Below, piece after piece: positions 1-32,200 of a stretch of DNA of 64,000 nucleotides. Below the pieces are notes generated by a model. That model saw only the letters and a program-made list of their open reading frames with translations, searched no databases and had not been told where the DNA came from. This stretch comes from Yuukianura sp. NJ FZ-2021 (lineage: Eukaryota): assembly GCA_046563655.1 (NCBI GenBank), contig CM102287.1, positions 10,354,001 through 10,418,000 on the forward strand, given 5' to 3'. The position numbers and the translations under genes were made by a program. Within the stretch, counting starts at the first letter, position 1; each line of letters begins with the position of its first letter.

Positions 1-35
1 AGTTTTAGTTTTAATTAACTTTGGATTTTTTGTAG

Positions 36-3000
36 GTGGAGTTGCGATGATTCGACTGGGGGATGTGATAGTTGAGTTTCATCCGATGTTTCGGTTTTAC
101 ATCACAACCAAATTGCGGAATCCACACTACCTTCCAGAAATCTCTACCAAAGTCCTTCTTCTCAATTTCATGATCACTCTCGAGGGACTGGAAGATCAGC
201 TCCTCGGAATTGTCGTCGCAAAAGAACGGTTAGACAACTTTTGTGCAACTTTTTTGCAACTTCCTAAAAAGTGTTTCTCTTACCGTCTTTGTTTGAATTT
301 CTAGTCCGAAACTGGAAGCGGAGCGACAAGAGTTGGTGGCGACCACTGCTAGGAATACGAAAGCACTCAAAGATGTAGAAGACAACATTTTGAATACGTT
401 ATCGTCGTCACAAGGAAACATCCTGGAAGATGAATATGCAATTGAGATACTCGATTCATCCAAGAAGATTTCAAGCGACATCCAGGAAAAACAGGTCGTG
501 GCAATGCAGACTGAAAAGCAAATTGAAAAGCATCGACTTGCGTTTAGACCAATTGCCCAGTAAAACAAAATATTCAATTACTTTTGAGAAATGTTCTTGA
601 ATTCTAATGTTTTGATTTTATATTTGTAGACATACGAGTGTTCTGTTCTTCTCGTTGACTGAATTACCCAACATTGATCCCATGTACCAGTATTCACTCA
701 ATTGGTTTGTCAATCTCTTCATCAATTCTATTGAACGAAGGTAAACACGGAAAAATTGTTACTTTCGAAAAAGCTGAATGTTACCAATTTTCTTATGCTT
801 TTGTACAGTGATCCGAGTCGAGTTTTGGAGAAAAGACTGAAGAATGTGATCGAACATTTCATGTTCAACTTGTACTCGAATGTGTGCCGAAGTCTTTTTG
901 AAAAAGACAAACTCTTGTTTTCCTTCATCCTCTGCGTTATCATTCTCTTGTGAGACTTTTTACACAATATGATTCAAAATTGATCAAAAAAGAAGAACTA
1001 ACTTTGAAAATTTTGAATTTCAGATCCCAGCAGAAACTGACGAAAGACGAATTTAAATTTTTGCTGACCGGTGGTGTTGGTCTTGCGAACGAACTGAAGA
1101 ATCCAGGGAAAGGATGGCTCTCTCCAGTTGCCTGGGACGAATTGTGTCGACTATCTCAGATGACCGGAGTTTGTCCAGCGATCAAAGGATTCCTGGATGA
1201 CTTTGAGAAAAAAATCGGTGCGTGGAAGGAGTTTTATAACTCCGCGGATCCAGCTGTAACTCCGCTACCTCCACCTTGGCAAGAGAGACTCACGCCCTTC
1301 CAACGCATGATGGTTCTCCGATGTCTGCGTCCAGACAAACTTATTCCGAGTATTCTTCTCTTTGTCACGGCCACACTTGGAGAAAAGTTTACACAACCAC
1401 CGCCATTTGACCTTGCGACCTCTTATCTTGATTCGTCGCATCTCATTCCACTCGTGTTCATGTTGTCTCCTGGAGCAGATCCAATGGCAGCTTTACTCAA
1501 GTTTGCAGAAGATTCTGGATTCGTTGGAACCAAGTTTGAAGCAATTTCACTAGGACAGGGACAAGTTAGTCTGATTTCCATGTAAAAAAAAAAAAGTCAA
1601 GACTTGTTCTGAAAATTTTTGAATTTGAATTTTTGAATTTCAGGGACCAATTGCAAAGCAGATGATTTTGAAAGCAGAGGAAGAGGGGAACTGGGTGTGT
1701 CTGCAGAATTGTCACTTGGCAGCATCCTGGATGCCGGAACTGGAGCGATTGTGTGAAGAAATGGGAAACGCTAAGATCCAGCCAGAATTTCGCTTATGGT
1801 TGACTTCGTACCCATCGCCCAAGGTCACGCAAATTGTTTTTTTTTGTTTGCCACTTCTTAGTATTATACTTATGAAAATTTTTACAACTACCTACTGACA
1901 TAAAATTTTGGTTTTCTGGAACAGTTCCCAGTGGCGATTCTGCAGAACAGTGTGAAGATGACGAATGAACCGCCGACGGGTCTGCGCATGAATCTTTTGC
2001 AATCATACAGTTCCGACCCCATTTCAGATCCAAAGTTCTACGGAGGCTGTCCAGGAAAAGACACTGAATTCAGAAAGTTGCTGTATGGACTTTGTTTTTT
2101 CCATGCTGTTGTGCAAGAACGAAGGTAACCTTAATTTAAGTAACAACTAATTAACTTAACAACTAATTAATTTGTACGCAATTAAATTAGAATATTGTCT
2201 TGGGCAGGAAATTCGGACCGCTTGGATTCAACATTCCTTATGGCTTCAACGACTCGGATTTGCGGATTTCAATTCGTCAGCTGCAGGTAAGTTTTTTCCA
2301 AAACCAAAATTTTGAAACTTATTGCCCAAAATCATGATTTAAAAAAAAGTTGTTTTTTTTTTTTGTTTGTTTGTAGATGTTTTTGCTTGAATATCCACAA
2401 GTTCCATATGATGCCATCGCATACTTGACTGGCGAATGCAACTACGGTGGACGTGTAACTGACGATTGGGACAGGTTATGCTTGTTCAATTTTTTAAACA
2501 GTAGTTTTTGAAAAAAAAAAATGAACTTATTTAATTTTAGACGTACACTGAACACCGTATTGGCTGACTTCTGCTGTCCAGAACTAACTGCTAATCCAAA
2601 CTACAAGTTTTCACCTTCTGGAATTTACGGTGTTCCACAACAATTGGGCTACGAAGATGTTTTACAATCGATCAAGGTTAGCATGTACAAGGGTTACCTG
2701 TACATTGTCCTAGTATCCAAAATTCCAAAATGTGTAACTTTTTCGAAATTTTGAAATTGTTCCAGAAATTGCCAGCAGTTTCAAAACCGGAAGTTTACAG
2801 AATGCATCCGAACGTGGACATTAGTCGAGAACTGCAAGAGACACGGAACCTTTGTGATGCTGTTTTACTCACTCAAGATCAATCAGGAGGAGGAGCCGAT
2901 GGAAAATTTGATTCATCGCTGGATGATATTGCAAATGGAATCCTTTCCAAGGTTCTAACACGATTTTTTTTTTAAAAGAAAAAGGAAAATTGAAAAAAAT

Positions 3001-3875
3001 TCGTTTTGTTTAGCTTCCAGAAAATTTTGACCTTGAAGTTGCTCTTGCCAAGTACCCGACTACTTACACAGAGTCAATGAACACCGTTTTGGTTCAAGAA
3101 ATGGAACGATTCAATCGCCTCCTCACGCGCATTCGCAACACTCTCAAAGATGTGCAGAAGGCCATCAAAGGACTCATTGTGATGTCACCAGATTTGGAGG
3201 CCATGGCAGTGACACTGGCCAATGGGAAAGTTCCTGCACTTTGGGCCAAAGTGTCTTACCCAAGTCTCAAGCCACTTGGATCCTACATCACAGACTTCCT
3301 CGAAAGACTTCGCTTTCTAGACAAGTGGTTCCGGGAAGGGAAACCACCAGTATTCTGGATCTCTGGATTCTACTTTACACAAGCATTTTTGACTGGAGCT
3401 ATGCAGAACTACGCTCGAAAATTCAAAATCCCAATTGATAAATTGGGATACGATTTCAGTATTTTGAAAGTTGACACGCTCAGCACTCCACCAGAAGACG
3501 GAGCTTATGTCTTTGGACTTTTTCTGGACGGAGCTCGATGGGATCGCCAACAGTAAGTTACTAAAAAGAATTGAAAAAAAAGAGTAAAAGTTAGAATAAC
3601 GAATTTGATTTGTTAGAAATCGACTGGATGAAATGCTGCCAAAAGTACTGTGGGACGCTATGCCAGTGATTTGGCTTGTACCAAAACAAAAATCAAAAAT
3701 TGAGAAAAGTGGGCGCTACGAATGTCCGGTTTATCGGACCTCGGAACGTCGTGGAACGCTTGCTACGACTGGACACTCGACAAATTACGTTCTTCCGATT
3801 CTACTTCCGACGAAAGAGGAACCACAGCACTGGATCAAGAGGGGAGTGGCACTTTTGTGCCAATTGGACAACTAG
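36..3875 (+). CDS. DNAH12: Axonemal inner-arm dynein heavy chain, C-terminal part (AAA5, AAA6, C-terminal domain); DNAH12/Dhc62B-like; 5'-partial, about 14 exons in window
   Basis: Spliced ORFs with GT-AG introns give [98 protein letters not shown] and terminal [36 protein letters not shown]. Stop TAG at 3873-3875. The dynein call is secure. The subfamily (DNAH12 vs DNAH3/7) rests on recalled diagnostic residues. Confidence 0.93.
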
Positions 3876-23434: not shown

Positions 23435-26298
<2,864 letters not shown>

Positions 26299-26563
26299 TC
26301 AAGCGAATTGGTTTATGTTAGTTAGTTCGTCCTGGTTAAACTAGGAAGTAACTTAAGAGCGACGGTTGAAGGTAGAGTGACGACGGTGGCTCCTTATCTA
26401 ATGACCACAATACCCTCTTCTTCCTCTTTTGGATTGGAACTGGGTGAGTGTGACGAAATGAGTGAATGAAGTTTACAAATCCCAGTTCACTAAAAAATAT
26501 GTGGAAGTGTCACTGGGATGACTCGATGACTGGCGACCTCAAGTTGAGGTCCTCAACTGTGTT

Positions 26564-26728
26564 TCAACGGTTTCTGAACAAAGAATTGAGGTCAGGTTTG
26601 GGCTTGGATTTGTCACTGTCTTTAGGAAACAAAGTTTCGTATGCCAAGGTCAAGCAGAGGAATCCAAAACTCAATGAACAAAATCCAAAGGAGTACAGTG
26701 CAAAGTTAAGAGCAGTGGCAGAAACCAT
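26564..26728 (-). CDS. Single-TM microprotein paralog 6 (54 aa; not in ORF track)
   Basis: MVSATALNFALYSFGFCSLSFGFLCLTLAYETLFPKDSDKSKPKPDLNSLFRNR*. Homologous to the neighbouring smORFs. Confidence 0.55.
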   Translation of the reverse strand: MVSATALNFALYSFGFCSLSFGFLCLTLAYETLFPKDSDKSKPKPDLNSLFRNR

Positions 26729-26783
26729 TACTAAAAGACAAAATGGACCATTTCCAGGAAATGGTTTCCTTGTTTACGTTAAG

Positions 26784-26981
26784 TTATTTAGGGTTGGGCT
26801 TGTCACTCCCTCTACGTGTCCACTTGTGAAATACATAGGTCAAACCGCACAATGCAATAGTCAATCCAAAGGTCAATGAACAAAAACTAAATGCATAAAG
26901 AGTAAACTTAACAGGGGTATTCAGCGACTCCAATCCCCATGACACGTCAACTCTGAGGGGGGCTGGTGGAGCAGAAACCAT
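26784..26981 (-). CDS. Single-TM microprotein paralog 5 (65 aa)
   Basis: MVSAPPAPLRVDVS..SLN..VKFTLYAFSFCSLTFGLTIALCGLTYVFHKWTRRGSDKPNPK*. Confidence 0.65.
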   Translation of the reverse strand: MVSAPPAPLRVDVSWGLESLNTPVKFTLYAFSFCSLTFGLTIALCGLTYVFHKWTRRGSDKPNPK

Positions 26982-27040
26982 TAGTGAATGACAATAATGA
27001 CAAAAATGGACCGTTTCCTTATTTACGTGTCAGGGTCAGG

Positions 27041-27232
27041 TTATTTAGGGTCGGGCTTGTCACTATCGCTGCCCTTACGAAGGAAGTTGTCAAAGACCCA
27101 GATCAAGGTGCAGAATGCAGCGGTCAAGGCGCACAATCCAAAGGAACCCATCACAAACGTAACAACAGTTGGGTTCAACGAGTCCACTGAGACGTCAATT
27201 CTGATGGGGGCGGGGGCTGGTGAAGAAATCAT
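27041..27232 (-). CDS. Single-TM microprotein paralog 4 (63 aa)
   Basis: MISSPAPAPIRIDVSVDSLNPTVVTFVMGSFGLCALTAAFCTLIWVFDNFLRKGSDSDKPDPK*. ATG at 27232. Confidence 0.65.
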   Translation of the reverse strand: MISSPAPAPIRIDVSVDSLNPTVVTFVMGSFGLCALTAAFCTLIWVFDNFLRKGSDSDKPDPK

Positions 27233-27260
27233 TGCGGAATGACAAAATGTTAAGGTTGCG

Positions 27261-27593
27261 CTATTTAGGGTTGGACTTGTCACTGCCTCTACGAGAGTTG
27301 TCTGGAGACGGAGCGGAGGTCAAGAGCCACCATGCACAGGCCAATAAACACAAGCTAACGGCACACAGTGTACAGTTAAGAGCGATTGGATTAATCCGCA
27401 AGTCCAATCGGAACGACTCCACTGACACGTGAACTCTGAGGGGGGCTTGTGGCGATGGGGGTACAAGGGCTGGGGCGCAAACTGTGTCCGCAGTACTCAC
27501 CGACACTGGTAGAGGATTTTCAACTGTAAGACGTTGCTTAAAAGTCGGAAATAACCAGGAAAATCCAGAAGATGAAGGTGACACAGATCCCAT
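27261..27593 (-). CDS. Single-TM microprotein paralog 3 (110 aa)
   Basis: ..PTF..LPVS..PALVPPSPQAPLRVHVSVES..hydrophobic Cys-rich helix..RRGSDKSNPK*. Confidence 0.65.
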   Translation of the reverse strand: MGSVSPSSSGFSWLFPTFKQRLTVENPLPVSVSTADTVCAPALVPPSPQAPLRVHVSVESFRLDLRINPIALNCTLCAVSLCLLACAWWLLTSAPSPDNSRRGSDKSNPK

Positions 27594-27770
27594 TAGTAAA
27601 TGAATGACACTCTTTTTAATAAATTAAGTAAATTCCTTATTTGAATCATCCGCTTCCTTGAGTTCACTTCAAACAGTAAAAAAACAAAGCTGTACTAAAA
27701 TAAATTTTAAAAAGTGGAACCTTTTAAGCGAAATTTGTTTCGTATAAAAATCAACTTCAGGATCAGTGTA

Positions 27771-27824
27771 CTACATTATGTCTTGTAGTAGTAGTTCATT
27801 GATCACTGGAATGAGTTCTTCCAT
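27771..27824 (-). pseudogene. Degenerate duplicate of the first codons of Drp1
   Basis: ATGGAAGAACTCATTCCAGTGATCAATGAACTACTACTACAAGAC (MEELIPVINELLLQDIM*) vs Drp1 ATGGAAGCACTGATTCCAGTGATCAACAAACTACAAGAT ([13 protein letters not shown]). The TAACAT..AAACCA leader is also similar. Confidence 0.75.
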
Positions 27825-27860
27825 TTGGTAGTTTGGTTTTATAATGTTATGGTGGTCGTA

Positions 27861-28157
27861 TTACTGTGGGTTTGAAGGATCACTGTCACCCCCTCTACGA
27901 AACCACTTATCGTACACAGAGGGCAAGAGCCACAATCCACAGATCACGCCAAGAGACGCGAAGACATAAAGGACAAACTTAACAGCGGTAGGTAGTGCGG
28001 TGTCTGGGTCCACTGCCTCCAGTGCAGCAGACCCACGGAACGGCGTTGATGTCACAGAACCCACCTCTGGGCTAGTGAAGGACACTGGCAATTGGTTTAA
28101 GTCAATGCGGTGGTTGAATGTAGGGATGAAGCAAGAAGAGAATCCACCGAATCCCAT
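27861..28157 (-). CDS. Single-TM microprotein paralog 2 (98 aa)
   Basis: MGFGGFSSCFIPTF..LPVSFTSPEV..AVKFVLYVFASLGVICGLWLLPSVYDKWFRRGGDSDPSNPQ*. Confidence 0.65.
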   Translation of the reverse strand: MGFGGFSSCFIPTFNHRIDLNQLPVSFTSPEVGSVTSTPFRGSAALEAVDPDTALPTAVKFVLYVFASLGVICGLWLLPSVYDKWFRRGGDSDPSNPQ

Positions 28158-28585
28158 TATTAGTCACAAGGTTCCTTCCACCGCGTCTACTACAACTCGA
28201 CTGACAATGACTAGGTCAGACGATCCTTCCTTTTTACAATGTATTTTCCCAACTCAACTTGGTTTCACCGTGTTGTGAGACCAACGTAGTGAGACCAAGT
28301 GTGGATGAGGGACGATGCAAATCTTAGCAAGGTTTGTATCCGCTTCTTTTAATTCTCCTCCAAGAGTAAAAAACCAAATTGCTTGCGATGTTGGTGGGTA
28401 CAAATGTACACATCCGACCGGTACAATGGGTGGCTAAAATTATAGCGGGGCGAAAATTTGAACGAGTGGGTATCCTAGTCTGGCCGCCCAGGTTTACTTC
28501 AACCAAGAACGCCGATCCGGTAGGAGTAGGTACAATTAAAAATGGAAAACCTTGGTATCACTGGAATTACGTCAGCTGGGCAGTA

Positions 28586-28819
28586 TTATTCTGGGTTAGA
28601 CCGATCAGTATCATTCCCTCTGCGAAACAACTTGTCAAATGCCCAGGTCAAGGCGCACAATCCAAAGGCAAACATTACAAACGTAACGGCTGGGTTCAAT
28701 GAGTCCACGGACACGACAACTCTGATGACTTGGGGCGATGGGGGTGCAAGGGCTGGAACAGAAGCTACCTCCGGAGTGATCGACACTGGTAGTGTATTTC
28801 CAAATGTAGGACGCTCCAT
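28586..28819 (-). CDS. Single-TM microprotein paralog 1 (77 aa)
   Basis: MERPTFGNTLPVSITPEV..PALAPPSPQVIRVVVSVDSLNPAVTFVMFAFGLCALTWAFDKLFRRGNDTDRSNPE*. Confidence 0.65.
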   Translation of the reverse strand: MERPTFGNTLPVSITPEVASVPALAPPSPQVIRVVVSVDSLNPAVTFVMFAFGLCALTWAFDKLFRRGNDTDRSNPE

Positions 28820-29210
28820 GAAAATTCACAAGGCGATGATGGTAACACCGATCGACTGATCCTTAGTACGATAACGACAACTTCCTTATGGTTATGACTT
28901 TATTTGATTCATCCGCTTCTTTTAATTCACCTCCAAGAGTAAAAAACCAAAAAGAGCTGTACTAAAATAAATTAAAATAGAACCTGTTGAGGTAAATCAA
29001 GGTTGACCCCTCACTGTTTGTTTTGTATAAAAATCAACTTCAGAATCAGAGTGTCACTTATGGCACTCGCAACATTTCCTCAATAAATAAAGTGGAAACC
29101 CCTCACAAACCACTTGGAATCTCTACTTCACACTCCGGATATGAACCTGAGAGGAAAGTAGTGCTTTCAAAGCTCAATGTAACCCTATGAGTCAAACTAT
29201 TGTGACACTA

Positions 29211-32200
29211 TCAGTCACTGGATAGGTTGCTGTCCGTGTCATTCGTGAGGCGGAACAACTTTCCCTGCACAGTGTACACCGTCGACGCTCCGTCCTTCTC
29301 AGCCATCGTGTGACCTGCCGACTAAACAAACACTTTGCAACGTCTTTTTCAATTTAAAAAAAAAAACAACTTTTTTCTTTAGAAAAAGTTTGCGTTCTTA
29401 CTTCACTGTATCCAGAGTATGAAGGGGCTTTACAACTGTAGCAACTCGCACGAGAGGATCGGATATCCGACAAGTTTCTAAAGTAGTCAATTCACAATTA
29501 CTTGAATCAATTGATTGAATTTAGAATATTTTTTTAGGAAAGATGCTAACTTGTCGTAAACCCGTGGGTGGAACTCTGGCTCCAGCCCAGTGGAACGTCG
29601 TCGCATTCCGCCTCTAGCCGAGACTTCAGTTCCCGAAGACACCAAAGCACCCGTAGAAATCCGCCGTTCTTGCAGCGACAGTTTGCGAAACGCTTTGGCT
29701 TCTTGCTCCCGCTGCAGCGTCGACGGTTGAACACTGGTGGATTTGGGGGGTTTGGGCTCCAAATAACTGAGCAACTTCCTCTCTCCAACACTGTCACCCC
29801 CAGAAGGGCCCAGACTCACAGTTGACCTTCCGTGACCTCCGTTGGGACTCTGGCGGATTTTGGCTCTTGGAATTACGACACTCATGGGAGACATTTCCTA
29901 AAAACAGGACCAAATCAGACTTAAATCCATAAAATTCCTTTTACTTTGTTTCATACGTGAGTCCTCATGGAGAAATTGATGAGATTGTGGTCGTTTCTTC
30001 TCTGTTGCGACTTCAGTCCAGGCTCAACCTAGATTCAAATCGTAACATTTCAATTATTTTTTTATCTATCAAAAGTTCTACAAAGTTCAAGTTCTAAAAA
30101 AATGCAAATGCGTTCAATTCGTTTTTCTGGGATTTTTTGTGGGTTACGAGTGAGTCTGGAGTGTATGACGGACGGGGTTGATGTAATCGCTGAATCGGTT
30201 CATCGCTGCCAATACTACTGGCAGTATCATGCATGATAGCGGTTCTTTCCAGCGTCGCTTGCGAAGTAGGACTTCTGTAGCGCATGAATCTTCCGCCTTG
30301 AATAGTCACCACAAATAAAATCCAATTTGCAAAAAAAAATGGATTTTTGCGTAATTTTTTATTTTTTTAAATTCAAAGTAATTTTTTGACTCACTTCCAA
30401 GTCGTTGTTCTCTGATGATTCCAGTAGTTCTGGGTTTCCGTCGACATGTGATGATAGTACAGACAATGACGAGGACAAAGAGCATGAGCCCCACCCCCAC
30501 CACGCCCATGAGCAGCACTTTGAGGTTCCAGCGACAGTCGGCCCCACCGAACCACCGGAAACAGTCACACGACATCCGCCCACTCTTGTCTCTGAGGCAG
30601 TTTCCTTTGTAGTTGCACTCGGAACAACCAAGGAGACTCACGCAGTCTCTCCCTGGACGATGTCTTTTCCTGTCTTTGAACCCCTCTTTACATTCACAAG
30701 TGAACGAACCAGGCAAATTAACGCACTCAGCATCAGCAGAACAGTCGTTGTAGTCCCCATTCGAGCATTCATTGAAATCTACATTCCAAAAAACAAAAAA
30801 TTATTATTTCGTTTTCAAATTTCAAAAAAACTCAACATTATGTGTGATTTGGATACCTTTGGTGCTAAAATCGGCGGATGCTTCCGGAGACAACAGCCCC
30901 ACTTGCCCCACCGTAAAATTAGAATTCCTCAGCGTTCGAACCAAGTGGCTGCGAATCCTCTCCTGCGTCATGTTTGTTGTGAGTTGAAGTAGAAAATCGA
31001 CGTAGAGCGTTGACGGAGGGCGTGGCTTCACTTTCATGACTTCCGTTCCTTGGAACTGTCGCTTGAGCTCGGAAGACAAGAACGCTGATTCCAGTGCATC
31101 CGACATTTGTGTCGTGAATCCATCTCCAGTAGACATGTCCATCAATTTATCAGTCGCTGCAACCATCTCCTTCACACTCACTGACATCTCATAAGTATAT
31201 GTCGCTGCAAAATTTCAAAAAAAAGCTCAAATCTTTTTCAAAACTTTAGTTTTTACGAAAATTTTGAATATTGTTACTTACGTCTACAAGGGTAGTTGGG
31301 CTTGAGTCGAGCGTATCCAATTTTGCAAGAACATTTTGCTGCAGTTCCGGTTCCACGACACATTTGGTTTCCAGTGGAGCAACTTGTGATGTTGCATCCA
31401 GAAAATGTCGCCACTGGAACTTTTGTCGTAGTTCCGTCTGTCGGAACAGCAGTAGTTGTCTGGCGAACTTCAACGGAATCGGAAGTGGTCGTTTTCCGAA
31501 CTAAAATTCCGCCTCCGGCCTTCAGAATTTTCTTTTCAGTTGATTCATTGGATAGAGCTGGAGTGAAACCGGAAGAAACCGGTTTCACGAGAACGAAACT
31601 GCCTTTACGTTCACTTTCCGCAACCAGAACTGGAACTTCATAAAAATATTTATACAAATATTTTTTTTATAAACTTTTAAAAGAATTTTTTTTTTTTGAA
31701 AAATTAATGTAAAGCATTTCTTACTTTGTGTAGGTTGTGATACAATAGTAGTTCTGATTGTAGTTGGTTGGATTTGAAGCGTGTTGACTAAAGTGACTGA
31801 ACCGACAATCGTACTCACGACTGTTTCGGGTGGATAAATTTTAGTTAAAATCACAGTTTCCGTGACAGGTCCAAATCCTTGAGCCGTCGTTGGTAAAATC
31901 CTCGTTTCCGTTTCAATTACGGACTCTGTTATACTTTCCGAATGGGTGACGAACCTTGTAGTTGGACTTGGTTTTGGAACTGGGAATTTAGTTGAAACGG
32001 AAGAAGCTGTGGAAACTGCCACTTTTTTGACTTTGGCCACCACTGGCCCTTCTTTTGTGATGAGTGTAGTTGCTGTCAAGTTTTCTTTTGGTGGTAGAGT
32101 GGAAAAATAGTTGGGTCGAATGGCTGGTCGAAATGTAGTTGGCGTCATTTCCACTGATTCTGCTCCGTTCAGAATTTCCTCCGAATCTGAAACTGGTTCA

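What the first reader, a model, noticed from the sequence alone, without database searches (positions are those of the whole stretch)
26564..28819. Array of six paralogous tail-anchored microproteins, apparently polycistronic, directly upstream of Drp1
Seen: six same-strand intronless ORFs of 54-110 aa share P-x-P-[LI]R[VI]xVS, SLN, a Cys-containing hydrophobic helix (FGLCAL-like) and a short R[RK]G-S-D-K-x-[ND]-P-K tail. Indels between copies leave every ORF open through the TM and tail, which argues for coding selection. The last four ORFs are separated by only 28, 59 and 55 nt, too little for poly(A) sites plus promoters, so one mRNA with several cistrons is likely. Established: arthropods have polycistronic smORF genes (tarsal-less/pri, sarcolamban), and a C-terminal TM followed by basic residues is the targeting pattern of mitochondrial outer-membrane and peroxisomal tail-anchored proteins such as the Drp1 adaptors Fis1 and Mff. 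Inference: an undescribed, expanded microprotein family that may be co-expressed with Drp1 or modulate it. I recognise no known family.
Basis: partly seen in the sequence, partly recalled or inferred. Interest (0 to 1): 0.85.

Follow-up and report, generated by a model that had tools for sequence, protein, structure and literature searches.

The report
Six small membrane-protein genes beside Drp1
A springtail genome carries, just upstream of the mitochondrial-fission gene Drp1, six tandem copies of a tiny gene with no known relatives that appears to encode short membrane-anchored proteins; how they are expressed and what they do remain unknown.

Summary
Six paralogous minus-strand ORFs of 54-110 aa lie at 26564-28819, directly upstream of Drp1 exon 1 (ATG at 26295). 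The host is a springtail.

The ORFs look coding:
- The proposed frame has 0 stops in all six copies. The other five frames have 5-35.
- In a frame-blind DNA alignment, 20 of 20 gap runs inside the ORFs are multiples of 3, against 2 of 11 in the upstream flanks.
- omega is 0.56 (2dlnL 13.7), or 0.67 (2dlnL 5.2) on a DNA-guided alignment. The five other frames give 0.73-1.69.
- All six keep a hydrophobic segment of 19-26 residues that ends 14-24 aa before the stop.

No homologue turned up in any library searched, so this is an orphan family.

No transcript data could be obtained, so the polycistron stays an inference from the 28, 59 and 55 nt spacers. Tail net charges (0, 0, +2, 0, +4, +2) do not separate ER from mitochondrial targeting. 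Nothing links the proteins functionally to Drp1. One historical link exists: a decayed copy of the start of Drp1 exon 1 lies 36 nt after the o2 stop.

Verdict: a real, new, lineage-restricted microprotein family of moderate interest.

The parts
28586..28819 (-). o1, 77-aa ORF. Uncharged hydrophobic span at residues 43-61, then a 16-aa tail.
   Evidence: AlphaFold2 gives a single helix at 43-66, mean pLDDT 60.
27861..28157 (-). o2, 98-aa ORF. Hydrophobic span at residues 61-82, 16-aa tail. Longest branch in the tree.
27261..27593 (-). o3, 110-aa ORF. Hydrophobic span at residues 70-94, 16-aa tail ending RRGSDKSNPK.
27041..27232 (-). o4, 63-aa ORF. Short form that lacks the N-terminal extension of o1-o3.
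26784..26981 (-). o5, 65-aa ORF, short form.
26564..26728 (-). o6, 54-aa ORF and the most degenerate copy. It has no PxPxRVxVS block, has lost the shared stop (10 extra codons), and its Inr-like motif is mutated.
27233..27260 (-). 28-nt spacer between o3 and o4. It contains GTCATTC, with the Inr-like TCATTC 10 nt before the o4 ATG.
26982..27040 (-). 59-nt spacer between o4 and o5. It is homologous to the o5/o6 spacer (35 of 49 aligned nt identical).
26729..26783 (-). 55-nt spacer between o5 and o6.
28911..28951 (-). 41-nt non-coding element, unit A copy. It contains ATTAAA, and an AATAAA follows at 28904.
28338..28378 (-). 41-nt element, unit B copy. It is 40/41 identical to the unit A copy and contains ATTAAA (28353).
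27648..27688 (-). 41-nt element, unit C copy. It is 32/41 identical to the unit B copy.
27594..27769 (-). Upstream flank of o3. It is homologous to the flank of o1 (28820-29052); over the alignment of 27594-27800 with 28820-29100, 144 of 196 aligned nt are identical (73.5%).
27791..27825 (-). Decayed copy of the start of Drp1 exon 1 (31/35 nt identical), 36 nt after the o2 stop. Read from its ATG, it meets a stop after 17 codons.
   Evidence: (family D13)
26197..26295 (-). Coding part of Drp1 exon 1.
26456..26470 (-). Inr-like TTCATTCACTCATTT, 166-174 nt upstream of the Drp1 ATG and about 95 nt downstream of the o6 stop. Possible Drp1 transcription start.
   Evidence: Motif only; function inferred.

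Best explanation
The array is a lineage-restricted family of six tandemly duplicated, protein-coding small ORFs in a springtail genome. No relative was found in any library.

Each ORF encodes a microprotein with three parts: a disordered Pro/Ser-rich N-terminal segment of 8-69 aa, one hydrophobic helix of 19-26 uncharged residues, and a short charged tail of 14-16 aa (24 aa in o6) that starts with R[RK]G in five of the six.

How it most likely works (inferred). The helix ends closer to the stop codon than the length of the ribosomal exit tunnel, which established knowledge puts at roughly 30-40 residues. The protein must therefore be released before the helix is exposed and be inserted post-translationally, as tail-anchored proteins are. 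That would put the N-terminus in the cytosol and the tail across the membrane. The target membrane, ER or mitochondrial outer membrane, cannot be decided from sequence.

The family grew by unequal tandem duplication in the interval between a mucin-like SEA/EGF/TM gene and Drp1. One duplication carried the first 11 codons of Drp1 along, so an o-type ORF was already next to the Drp1 start at that time.

o1 and o2 probably have their own mRNAs. o3-o6 are too tightly packed for separate 3' ends and must share transcripts. These could be one polycistronic RNA, or nested RNAs starting at the Inr-like motifs 10 nt before the ATGs of o3, o4 and o5.
For: Coding:
- The proposed frame has 0 stops in 6 of 6 copies. 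The other five frames total 18, 35, 17, 5 and 32 stops.
- In MAFFT nucleotide alignments made without frame information, 20/20, 21/21, 20/20 and 19/19 unique gap runs (four MAFFT modes) are multiples of 3. The upstream flanks give 2/11 and 1/11.
- GY codon model: omega 0.555 and 2dlnL 13.67 against omega = 1 (about p 2e-4). The other five frames give 0.73-1.69.
- On a DNA-guided alignment of 76 codon columns, omega is 0.668 and 2dlnL 5.22 (about p 0.02). The two shifted frames give 1.28 and 1.12.
- 13 of 15 pairwise Nei-Gojobori dN/dS values are below 1.
- Rough neutral simulations on the terminal branches: all six stay open with P about 6e-5, and all six keep a 19-residue Kyte-Doolittle window of at least 1.6 with P about 0.002.
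- The ATG aligns in 6 of 6 copies and the stop in 5 of 6 in the DNA alignment.
- The co-duplicated Drp1 fragment has decayed to a stop after 17 codons, while the ORFs beside it stay open.

Architecture: best 19-residue hydropathy is 1.67-2.14 in all six, with tails of 14-24 aa. AlphaFold2 on the alignment predicts a single helix at 43-66 and disorder elsewhere.

Orphan status.

Transcription signals: ATTAAA at 28926, 28353 and 27620, and AATAAA at 28904. There are none between 27620 and 26000. Inr-like TCAKTY lies 10-47 nt upstream of the ATGs of o1-o5.
Against: - No expression evidence of any kind could be obtained, and no orthologous locus from another species could be examined. All selection evidence therefore comes from paralogues in one genome.
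- Constraint is weak. omega is 0.56-0.67, and the o3/o4 and o3/o6 pairs give dN/dS of 1.13 and 1.0.
- DNA identity of o1 and o3 (73.8%) equals that of their non-coding flanks (73.5%).
- The omega = 1 null was fitted on a coarse kappa grid, which can inflate the likelihood-ratio statistic slightly.
- The protein-guided alignment favours the tested frame, and the DNA-guided control is only marginally significant.
- The antisense frame that shares wobble positions is also fairly open (5 stops) with omega 0.73.
- A codon-usage score trained on genes of the window did not separate the ORFs from non-coding controls, except for o1.
- TCAKTY is not enriched in the window: 255 matches against 256 expected. 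The copies are homologous, so the Inr-like motifs amount to about two independent observations.
- By the positive-inside rule, the basic residues after the helix could instead mean a cytosolic C-terminus, which is the opposite topology.
Confidence: 0.55

Rival explanations
1. The ORFs are upstream cistrons or uORFs of Drp1 mRNAs. Transcripts that start in the array run into Drp1. The ORFs then act mainly in cis by tuning Drp1 translation, or are co-expressed with Drp1, rather than forming independent genes.
For: - No canonical AATAAA or ATTAAA lies on the minus strand between 27620 and 26000, so RNAs covering o3-o6 have no obvious 3' end before Drp1.
- The o6 stop is only about 95 nt from the Inr-like motif of Drp1 and 268 nt from its ATG.
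- A Drp1 exon-1 start copy lies 36 nt after the o2 stop. This suggests an ancestral layout of an o-ORF directly followed by the Drp1 ATG.
Against: - Absence of the two hexamers over about 1.6 kb is weak evidence. My own estimate from base composition expects about 1.7 by chance.
- Purely cis-acting uORFs would not be expected to keep a hydrophobic helix and a shared tail across six diverged copies.
- Six ORFs of 54-110 codons in a leader would nearly abolish translation of an essential housekeeping gene (inference).
- Drp1 has its own Inr-like motif and a candidate 73-nt leader intron downstream of o6.
Confidence: 0.15
2. The units are dead or dying duplicates. On this reading the duplicated DNA is Drp1-upstream sequence, perhaps regulatory. 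It once held, or merely resembles, a small gene, and the present ORFs make no functional protein.
For: - Constraint is weak, with two pairwise dN/dS values at or above 1.
- CDS and flank identity are equal.
- o6 is visibly degraded.
- A 41-nt non-coding element is far better kept than the ORFs, 40/41 between units A and B. This hints that selection or gene conversion acts on non-coding parts.
- There are no homologues anywhere, and the codon-usage score is uninformative.
Against: - 20 of 20 in-ORF gap runs are multiples of 3, against 2 of 11 in the flanks.
- There are zero stops in 467 codons in one frame only.
- omega is significantly below 1 only in that frame.
- The neutral expectation for all six staying open is about 6e-5.
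- The ATG is retained in 6 of 6 copies.
Confidence: 0.15
3. The units are alternative or cassette exons of a larger gene, for example alternative terminal exons of the mucin-like SEA/EGF/TM gene just upstream. They would not be complete ORFs.
For: - Tandem arrays of similar exons exist in arthropod genes (recalled).
- The last ORF of the upstream gene ends at 29487 in a sequence that could also be read as a GT donor (by eye).
- A pyrimidine-rich ...ttttag precedes the flanks of units A and C (by eye).
Against: - All six begin at an aligned ATG, and five share an aligned stop.
- The upstream gene already has its own TM segment and cytoplasmic tail.
- No acceptor site is conserved before the ORFs, and candidate internal donors are not conserved between copies (by eye).
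- The profile search over proteins of all lengths found no larger protein containing such a segment.
Confidence: 0.05
4. The units are fragments of a transposon, virus or satellite.
For: They are tandemly repeated and have no cellular homologues.
Against: - No Pfam family of any kind matches at E up to 10.
- No relative was found among viral contigs.
- There is no further copy elsewhere in the 64-kb window.
- The repeat carries host sequence, namely the Drp1 exon-1 start.
- The genome-wide copy number could not be checked, because no genome is held.
Confidence: 0.03

Closest known systems
Tail-anchored membrane proteins, including the Drp1 adaptors Fis1 and Mff
   Same: There is a single hydrophobic helix whose end lies 14-24 aa from the C-terminus, no second hydrophobic segment, and basic residues directly after the helix.
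   Different: No sequence relationship: 0 Pfam families at E up to 10. The cytosolic part is 8-69 disordered residues with no TPR or coiled-coil domain. Tail net charge is 0 in three of the six copies, which is ER-like rather than mitochondrial or peroxisomal by the mammalian statistics of PMC5450235. Topology and destination are untested.
tarsal-less / polished rice / mille-pattes polycistronic smORF gene (arthropods)
   Same: Several paralogous small ORFs lie on one strand within a few hundred bases, and the last four are only 28-59 nt apart.
   Different: The tal/pri peptides are 11-32 aa, soluble and share an LDPTGxY-type motif. That description is recalled; only the titles and abstract starts of related papers were seen in the listing. 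Here the ORFs are 54-110 aa, membrane-type and lack that motif. A shared mRNA is not shown.
Sarcolamban / phospholamban / sarcolipin-type single-pass micropeptides
   Same: They are small single-helix membrane peptides, and in Drosophila two paralogous ORFs share one transcript (recalled).
   Different: No Pfam match. The ORFs here are two to four times longer, carry a long N-terminal disordered part, and have a different tail.
Short coding sequences (sCDS-type smORFs of about 70-80 aa) of insects
   Same: The size class matches, and so does the frequent presence of a recognisable structural element such as a helix (abstract start of PMC11674832, listing).
   Different: This family has no detectable conservation outside the window and is amplified six-fold in tandem.
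uORF-encoded microproteins of mitochondrial-dynamics genes (for example the MIEF1 upstream ORF product; recalled, not looked up)
   Same: A small ORF sits immediately upstream of a fission-machinery gene. A Drp1 start copy 36 nt after o2 suggests a former uORF-like layout.
   Different: The present ORFs lie upstream of the likely Drp1 start site, number six, and encode membrane rather than soluble peptides. Co-transcription is untested.

Membership tests
Tail-anchored (TA) protein class | A single transmembrane segment | tested here: met
   The best 19-residue Kyte-Doolittle window is 1.67-2.14 in 6 of 6 copies, within uncharged spans of 19-26 aa. AlphaFold2 predicts one helix at 43-66 in o1. 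No dedicated TM predictor was available.
Tail-anchored (TA) protein class | The TM segment lies within about 30 residues of the C-terminus | tested here: met
   Tails after the hydrophobic span are 16, 16, 16, 16, 14 and 24 aa.
Tail-anchored (TA) protein class | No N-terminal signal peptide; post-translational insertion with the N-terminus in the cytosol | not testable with these tools
   Hydropathy shows no second hydrophobic segment. No signal-peptide predictor or experiment was available. The basic residues after the helix would also fit the opposite topology.
Mitochondrial outer-membrane / peroxisomal TA targeting signal | Net positive C-terminal tail (mammalian means: mitochondria 1.12, mitochondria plus peroxisomes 2.5, peroxisomes 6.03, ER 0.21) | tested here: inconclusive
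   Tail net charges are 0, 0, +2, 0, +4 and +2, compared with the values read in PMC5450235. The six copies span the ER-to-mitochondria range.
Mff and Fis1 (Drp1 adaptors) | Match to the family profile (Pfam) | tested here: not met
   0 Pfam families for all six ORFs at E up to 10. The PDB profile search gave only two unrelated hits at E 0.07-0.08.
tal/pri/mlpt polycistronic smORF gene | ORFs of 11-32 aa sharing the LDPTGxY-type heptapeptide (recalled) | tested here: not met
   The ORFs are 54-110 aa, and the motif is not in the alignment.
tal/pri/mlpt polycistronic smORF gene | All ORFs on one mature mRNA | not testable with these tools
   No RNA run was listed.
Phospholamban / sarcolipin / sarcolamban | Match to the family profile; peptide of about 30-50 aa | tested here: not met
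   No Pfam family at E up to 10. Lengths are 54-110 aa.
uORF of Drp1 | Located within the 5' leader of the Drp1 mRNA | not testable with these tools
   There are no transcript data. Motif-level hints point both ways.

The most novel reading that the evidence does not exclude
A springtail-specific family of tail-anchored microproteins began as an upstream cistron on the Drp1 mRNA and was amplified in place. It is still expressed from polycistronic or Drp1-reading-through transcripts. Its products sit in the mitochondrial or peroxisomal membrane and modulate Drp1-dependent fission. This would be an animal operon-like unit that couples a fission GTPase to lineage-specific membrane partners.
Probability: 0.06. 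Interest if true: 0.85.

Novelty: new member of a known kind. Interest (0 to 1): 0.45.

Why it matters
If these ORFs are expressed, they form a previously unannotated microprotein family. The profile search of 1.84 billion protein representatives found no true relative, which shows how standard annotation and homology searches miss small genes.

The last four ORFs are 28-59 nt apart. That spacing leaves no room for conventional separate 3' ends and promoters, so the locus is a compact natural test case for how animals express several 50-110-codon ORFs from one stretch. The options are a true polycistron, nested starts, or read-through into the next gene.

The decayed Drp1 exon-1 copy inside the array gives an internal neutral control and a dated link to the 5' end of Drp1. 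It is useful for studying how new small genes arise and multiply in promoter-proximal DNA.

A functional tie to mitochondrial fission would be important, but nothing here supports it beyond position.

Tried and rejected
**Data that could not be obtained**
- Expression: the look-up of sequencing runs listed no RNA holder. That is 'none was listed', not evidence either way. Read laying could therefore not be used.
- Whole genome: none is held for this window.

**Homology searches**
- The word-indexed search with o1 found no candidate. With alignment A1 it had 1223 candidates, none at E up to 1.
- The HMM profile against 1,835,955,588 representatives gave 2 hits at E up to 0.001. One is a 1593-aa protein with 9 matched stretches and the other a 2629-aa protein with 4. 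Reading them, I judged both to be spurious matches of repeat units, with no helix-plus-tail unit.
- Pfam gave 0 families for the six ORFs at E up to 10, and 0 for the six plus-strand antisense ORFs at E up to 1.
- The PDB profile search gave 2 unrelated hits at E 0.07-0.08.
- ESM Atlas: the best score for o1 was 0.84, below the 0.9 lead level. There was no usable named hit for o4.
I repeated it with single proteins.
  - Metagenome contigs gave 1 locus matching only residues 1-21 of o4. Its translation has no hydrophobic segment, so I judged it spurious.
  - Viral contigs gave 54 pattern matches, none of them a relative.
- The 41-nt element had 0 exact matches in viral contigs.
- Rfam over 26000-29600 gave 1 match at E 0.96, far below its gathering score.

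**Tests that were inconclusive or not significant**
- The codon-usage log-odds score, trained on 5187 codons of window genes, was inconclusive. Only o1 exceeded the 95th percentile of the non-coding controls, and the sense and wobble-sharing antisense frames scored alike.
- A possible seventh relic copy at 29232-29261 was not significant: tblastn E 0.59, and DNA local score 19 against a shuffled maximum of 21.
- A second Drp1-like piece after o1 (11 exact nt at 28557-28567) was not significant alone: score 22 against a shuffled maximum of 24.
- I thought I saw homology between the Drp1 leader and the spacer after o2. The local alignment did not recover it beyond the 35-nt exon-1 copy.
- There was no significant similarity between the o6-to-Drp1 interval and the unit flanks.
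- The three short spacers gave too few gap runs to serve as an indel control: 1 of 3 or 2 of 3 were multiples of 3.

**Literature searches (listings only unless stated)**
- Collembola + smORF: 1 paper, unrelated.
- Drp1 + microprotein + tail-anchored: 7 papers, 6 listed; none describes such a family by title or abstract start.
- polycistronic + smORF + transmembrane + arthropod: 10 papers.
- Collembola + polycistronic: 9 papers. The seven whose titles or abstract starts show a topic concern mitochondrial genomes or tRNAs, and none describes nuclear polycistrons.
- 'Folsomia candida' + 'spliced leader': 0 papers.
- These searches found no description in print of this family, or of nuclear polycistrons or trans-splicing in springtails. 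Subscription journals are not covered.
Full report
**What is there**

On the minus strand, one search lists six ATG-to-stop ORFs at exactly the reported coordinates:
- o1 28586-28819 (77 aa)
- o2 27861-28157 (98 aa)
- o3 27261-27593 (110 aa)
- o4 27041-27232 (63 aa)
- o5 26784-26981 (65 aa)
- o6 26564-26728 (54 aa)

The spacers are 428, 267, 28, 59 and 55 nt.

Downstream on the same strand, an ORF starting at 26295 is 30/33 identical to the N-terminus of Folsomia candida dynamin-1-like protein. The exon at 25116-25634 is 89% identical to the same protein and 87% identical to that of Orchesella dallaii, and every other hit is at or below 83%. So the window comes from a springtail that is not itself in the protein database, and the array lies directly upstream of Drp1.

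Upstream of the array, still on the minus strand, is the 3' end of a very large mucin-like gene. It has SEA and EGF matches and its own TM segment at 30306-31214. Its last long ORF ends at 29487.

**Paralogy**

In a tblastn of the six peptides against the window, each finds all six loci. E-values run from 5e-16 to 0.38, with o3/o6 the weakest pair. Nothing else in the 64 kb scores below E = 0.06.

The protein alignment A1 has 41% mean column identity.
- The PxPxRVxVS block is intact in o3, o4 and o5, near-intact in o1, degraded in o2 and absent from o6.
- The tail R[RK]G..(S/T)D..NP[KEQ] holds for o1-o5.
- o6 has lost the shared stop and reads on for 10 codons.

**Is it coding?**

Several independent-looking lines say yes, with weak constraint.

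1. Open frames. Within the aligned ORFs the proposed frame has no stop in any of the six copies. The other five frames have 18, 35, 17, 5 and 32 stops in total.
2. Indels. When the six coding sequences are aligned as plain DNA, with no knowledge of the frame, every unique gap run is a multiple of three. The counts are 20/20, 21/21, 20/20 and 19/19 under four MAFFT modes. The same procedure on the upstream flanks of units A, B and C gives 2/11 and 1/11. This is the strongest single result.
3. Codon models.
   - A Goldman-Yang model on the protein-guided codon alignment gives omega 0.555, and a fit with omega fixed at 1 is worse by 2dlnL = 13.67.
   - The same columns read in the other five frames give omega 1.59, 1.14, 1.44, 0.73 and 1.69.
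   - A protein-guided alignment favours the tested frame, so I repeated the test on codon columns taken from the DNA alignment. That gave omega 0.668 with 2dlnL 5.22, and 1.28 and 1.12 in the two shifted sense frames.
   - The null was fitted on a coarse kappa grid, so these statistics are slightly generous.
4. Pairwise dN/dS. 13 of 15 Nei-Gojobori values are below 1. The exceptions are o3/o4 (1.13) and o3/o6 (1.0).
5. Neutral simulations. Rough forward simulations used the terminal branch lengths of the codon tree. All six copies stay open with probability about 6e-5. All six keep a 19-residue hydropathy window of at least 1.6 with probability about 0.002.
6. Start and stop. The ATG aligns in six of six copies and the stop in five of six.
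7. Internal control. A 35-nt copy of the start of Drp1 exon 1 lies at 27791-27825, 36 nt after the o2 stop. It is 31/35 identical, with a local score of 50 against a shuffled maximum of 26. Read from its ATG, it meets a stop after 17 codons (sequence). So a co-duplicated coding piece decayed while the ORFs next to it stayed open.

**Evidence against coding**

- The antisense frame that shares third positions with the sense frame is also rather open (5 stops, omega 0.73). This is the expected by-product of a hydrophobic, Tyr/His/Gln-poor sense frame. That frame has no conserved start or stop and no hydrophobic segment.
- The DNA identity of o1 and o3 (73.8%) equals that of their flanks (73.5%).
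- A codon-usage score was uninformative.
- No transcript, ribosome or cross-species evidence could be had.

I put the probability that these ORFs are, or until recently were, maintained as coding at about 0.85.

**What they encode**

All six have one strongly hydrophobic stretch. The best 19-residue Kyte-Doolittle mean is 1.67-2.14, within uncharged spans of 19-26 residues. The tail that follows is 16, 16, 16, 16, 14 and 24 residues long.

AlphaFold2 on the six-sequence alignment predicts a single helix at residues 43-66 of o1 and nothing else ordered (mean pLDDT 60). The N-terminal part is Pro/Ser-rich and varies in length through large in-frame indels (8-69 aa).

The helix ends well within the length of the ribosomal tunnel from the stop codon (established knowledge). 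Post-translational, tail-anchor-type insertion is therefore the most economical mechanism. This is inference.

The destination is open. Tail net charges are 0, 0, +2, 0, +4 and +2. In the mammalian data set of Costello et al. 2017 (PMC5450235, passages read), mean tail charge is 0.21 for ER, 1.12 for mitochondria, 2.5 for proteins shared between mitochondria and peroxisomes, and 6.03 for peroxisomes. The basic residues just after the helix would also fit a cytosolic C-terminus, which is the opposite topology.

**Relatives**

None were found:
- The word-indexed searches gave nothing.
- The profile HMM search of 1.84 billion representatives of all lengths returned two proteins. Both are long repeat proteins matched through their repeat units, and I judged them spurious on reading them.
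- Pfam, PDB sequences, ESM Atlas, viral contigs and metagenome contigs (one spurious hit) gave nothing.

The nearest springtails in the database share only 87-89% identity even in Drp1. With omega near 0.6, orthologues at that distance would probably be undetectable, and small ORFs are rarely annotated. The blank therefore says little about the age of the family.

**Anatomy of the repeat**

Units A (o1), B (o2) and C (o3) are 570-730 bp long, measured from ATG to ATG.
- The upstream flanks of A and C align over about 200 nt at 73.5% identity.
- All three units carry a sharply bounded 41-nt element. It is 40/41 identical between A (28911-28951) and B (28338-28378) and 32/41 between B and C (27648-27688). 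That is far better preserved between A and B than the ORFs o1 and o2.
- The element contains ATTAAA, and in unit A an AATAAA follows it. It may be a 3'-end formation signal for the preceding transcript, a promoter element or a gene-conversion patch. It has no Rfam match. I cannot decide among these.

Units o4, o5 and o6 are compact duplicates of ORF plus spacer. The o4/o5 and o5/o6 spacers are homologous, with 35 of 49 aligned nt identical.

The Drp1 exon-1 copy between units B and C shows that at least one duplication spanned from an o-unit into the start of Drp1. An o-type ORF was therefore already adjacent to the Drp1 start, possibly within a few dozen bases, before the array expanded. The distance is inference, because later deletions cannot be excluded.

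**Expression model (all inferred from motifs)**

- Canonical poly(A) hexamers on the minus strand between 29600 and 26000 occur only at 28926, 28904, 28353 and 27620. These lie before o1, between o1 and o2, and just before o3. o1 and o2 could therefore be ordinary monocistronic genes.
- There are none from 27620 to beyond the Drp1 start. With about 1.7 expected by chance (my estimate from base composition), this is weak evidence. It leaves o3-o6 without an obvious 3' end before Drp1.
- Inr-like TCAKTY motifs lie 40 and 47 nt upstream of the ATGs of o1 and o2, and 10 nt upstream of those of o3 (a second, overlapping match at 14 nt), o4 and o5. The o6 copy is mutated. Others lie 166-174 nt upstream of the Drp1 ATG.
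- The motif is not enriched in the window: 255 matches against 256 expected. The positions are homologous between copies, so this is a hint only.

Three models remain for o3-o6:
- nested RNAs that start before each ORF and share a 3' end;
- read-through into Drp1.

I rank the first two about equal and the third lower.

**Comparison with known systems and verdict**

The locus works most like a smORF microprotein family with a tail-anchor architecture. It is not a member of Mff, Fis1, phospholamban/sarcolamban or tal/pri by any feature I could test.

Lineage-specific tandem families of small single-pass proteins are a known kind of thing. What is less usual is the 28-59 nt spacing of 54-110-codon ORFs and the documented history at the 5' end of Drp1.

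I score it as a real, new member of a known kind and of moderate interest. The more exciting readings, a polycistron and Drp1 modulation, are still untested.

Noticed in passing
window 28911-28951, 28338-28378, 27648-27688 (minus strand): A sharply bounded 41-nt non-coding element that contains ATTAAA. It is 40/41 identical between units A and B and 32/41 between B and C, far better kept than the neighbouring ORFs. There are no other copies in the window, no Rfam match and no viral-contig match.
   Followed up: partly
window 27791-27825 (minus strand): A decayed copy of the first 11 codons of Drp1 (31/35 nt identical), 36 nt after the o2 stop. Its frame is closed after 17 codons. It marks a duplication that reached into Drp1.
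   Followed up: yes
window 26341-26413 and 26456-26470 (minus strand): A candidate 73-nt GT..AG intron in the Drp1 leader and an Inr-like TTCATTCACTCATTT upstream of it. Together they would place the Drp1 transcription start about 95 nt downstream of the o6 stop. This was read by eye from the sequence.
   Followed up: partly
window 29211-29306 (minus strand): A 31-aa ORF whose end resembles the o1 tail (8 of 10 residues identical; tblastn E 0.59). It could be a seventh relic copy, but it is not significant at the DNA level.
   Followed up: yes
window 29487-49547 (minus strand): A run of very long Ser/Thr/Pro-rich ORFs of 2018, 1290, 613, 540 and 475 aa, ending in SEA, EGF and TM segments at 30306-31214. 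Together they look like one giant transmembrane mucin-like gene. The 2018-aa ORF contains a QKNQEF-type repeat tract.
   Followed up: partly
window 26466-28859 (plus strand): Long open frames antisense to the array (61-137 aa). They are in the antisense frame that shares third codon positions with the sense ORFs. They have no Pfam match and no conserved start or stop, and are best read as a by-product of the sense coding frame.
   Followed up: yes
window 1-3556 (plus strand): ORFs that look like the C-terminal part of an axonemal dynein heavy chain. This is recognised from memory and was not checked with a tool.
   Followed up: no
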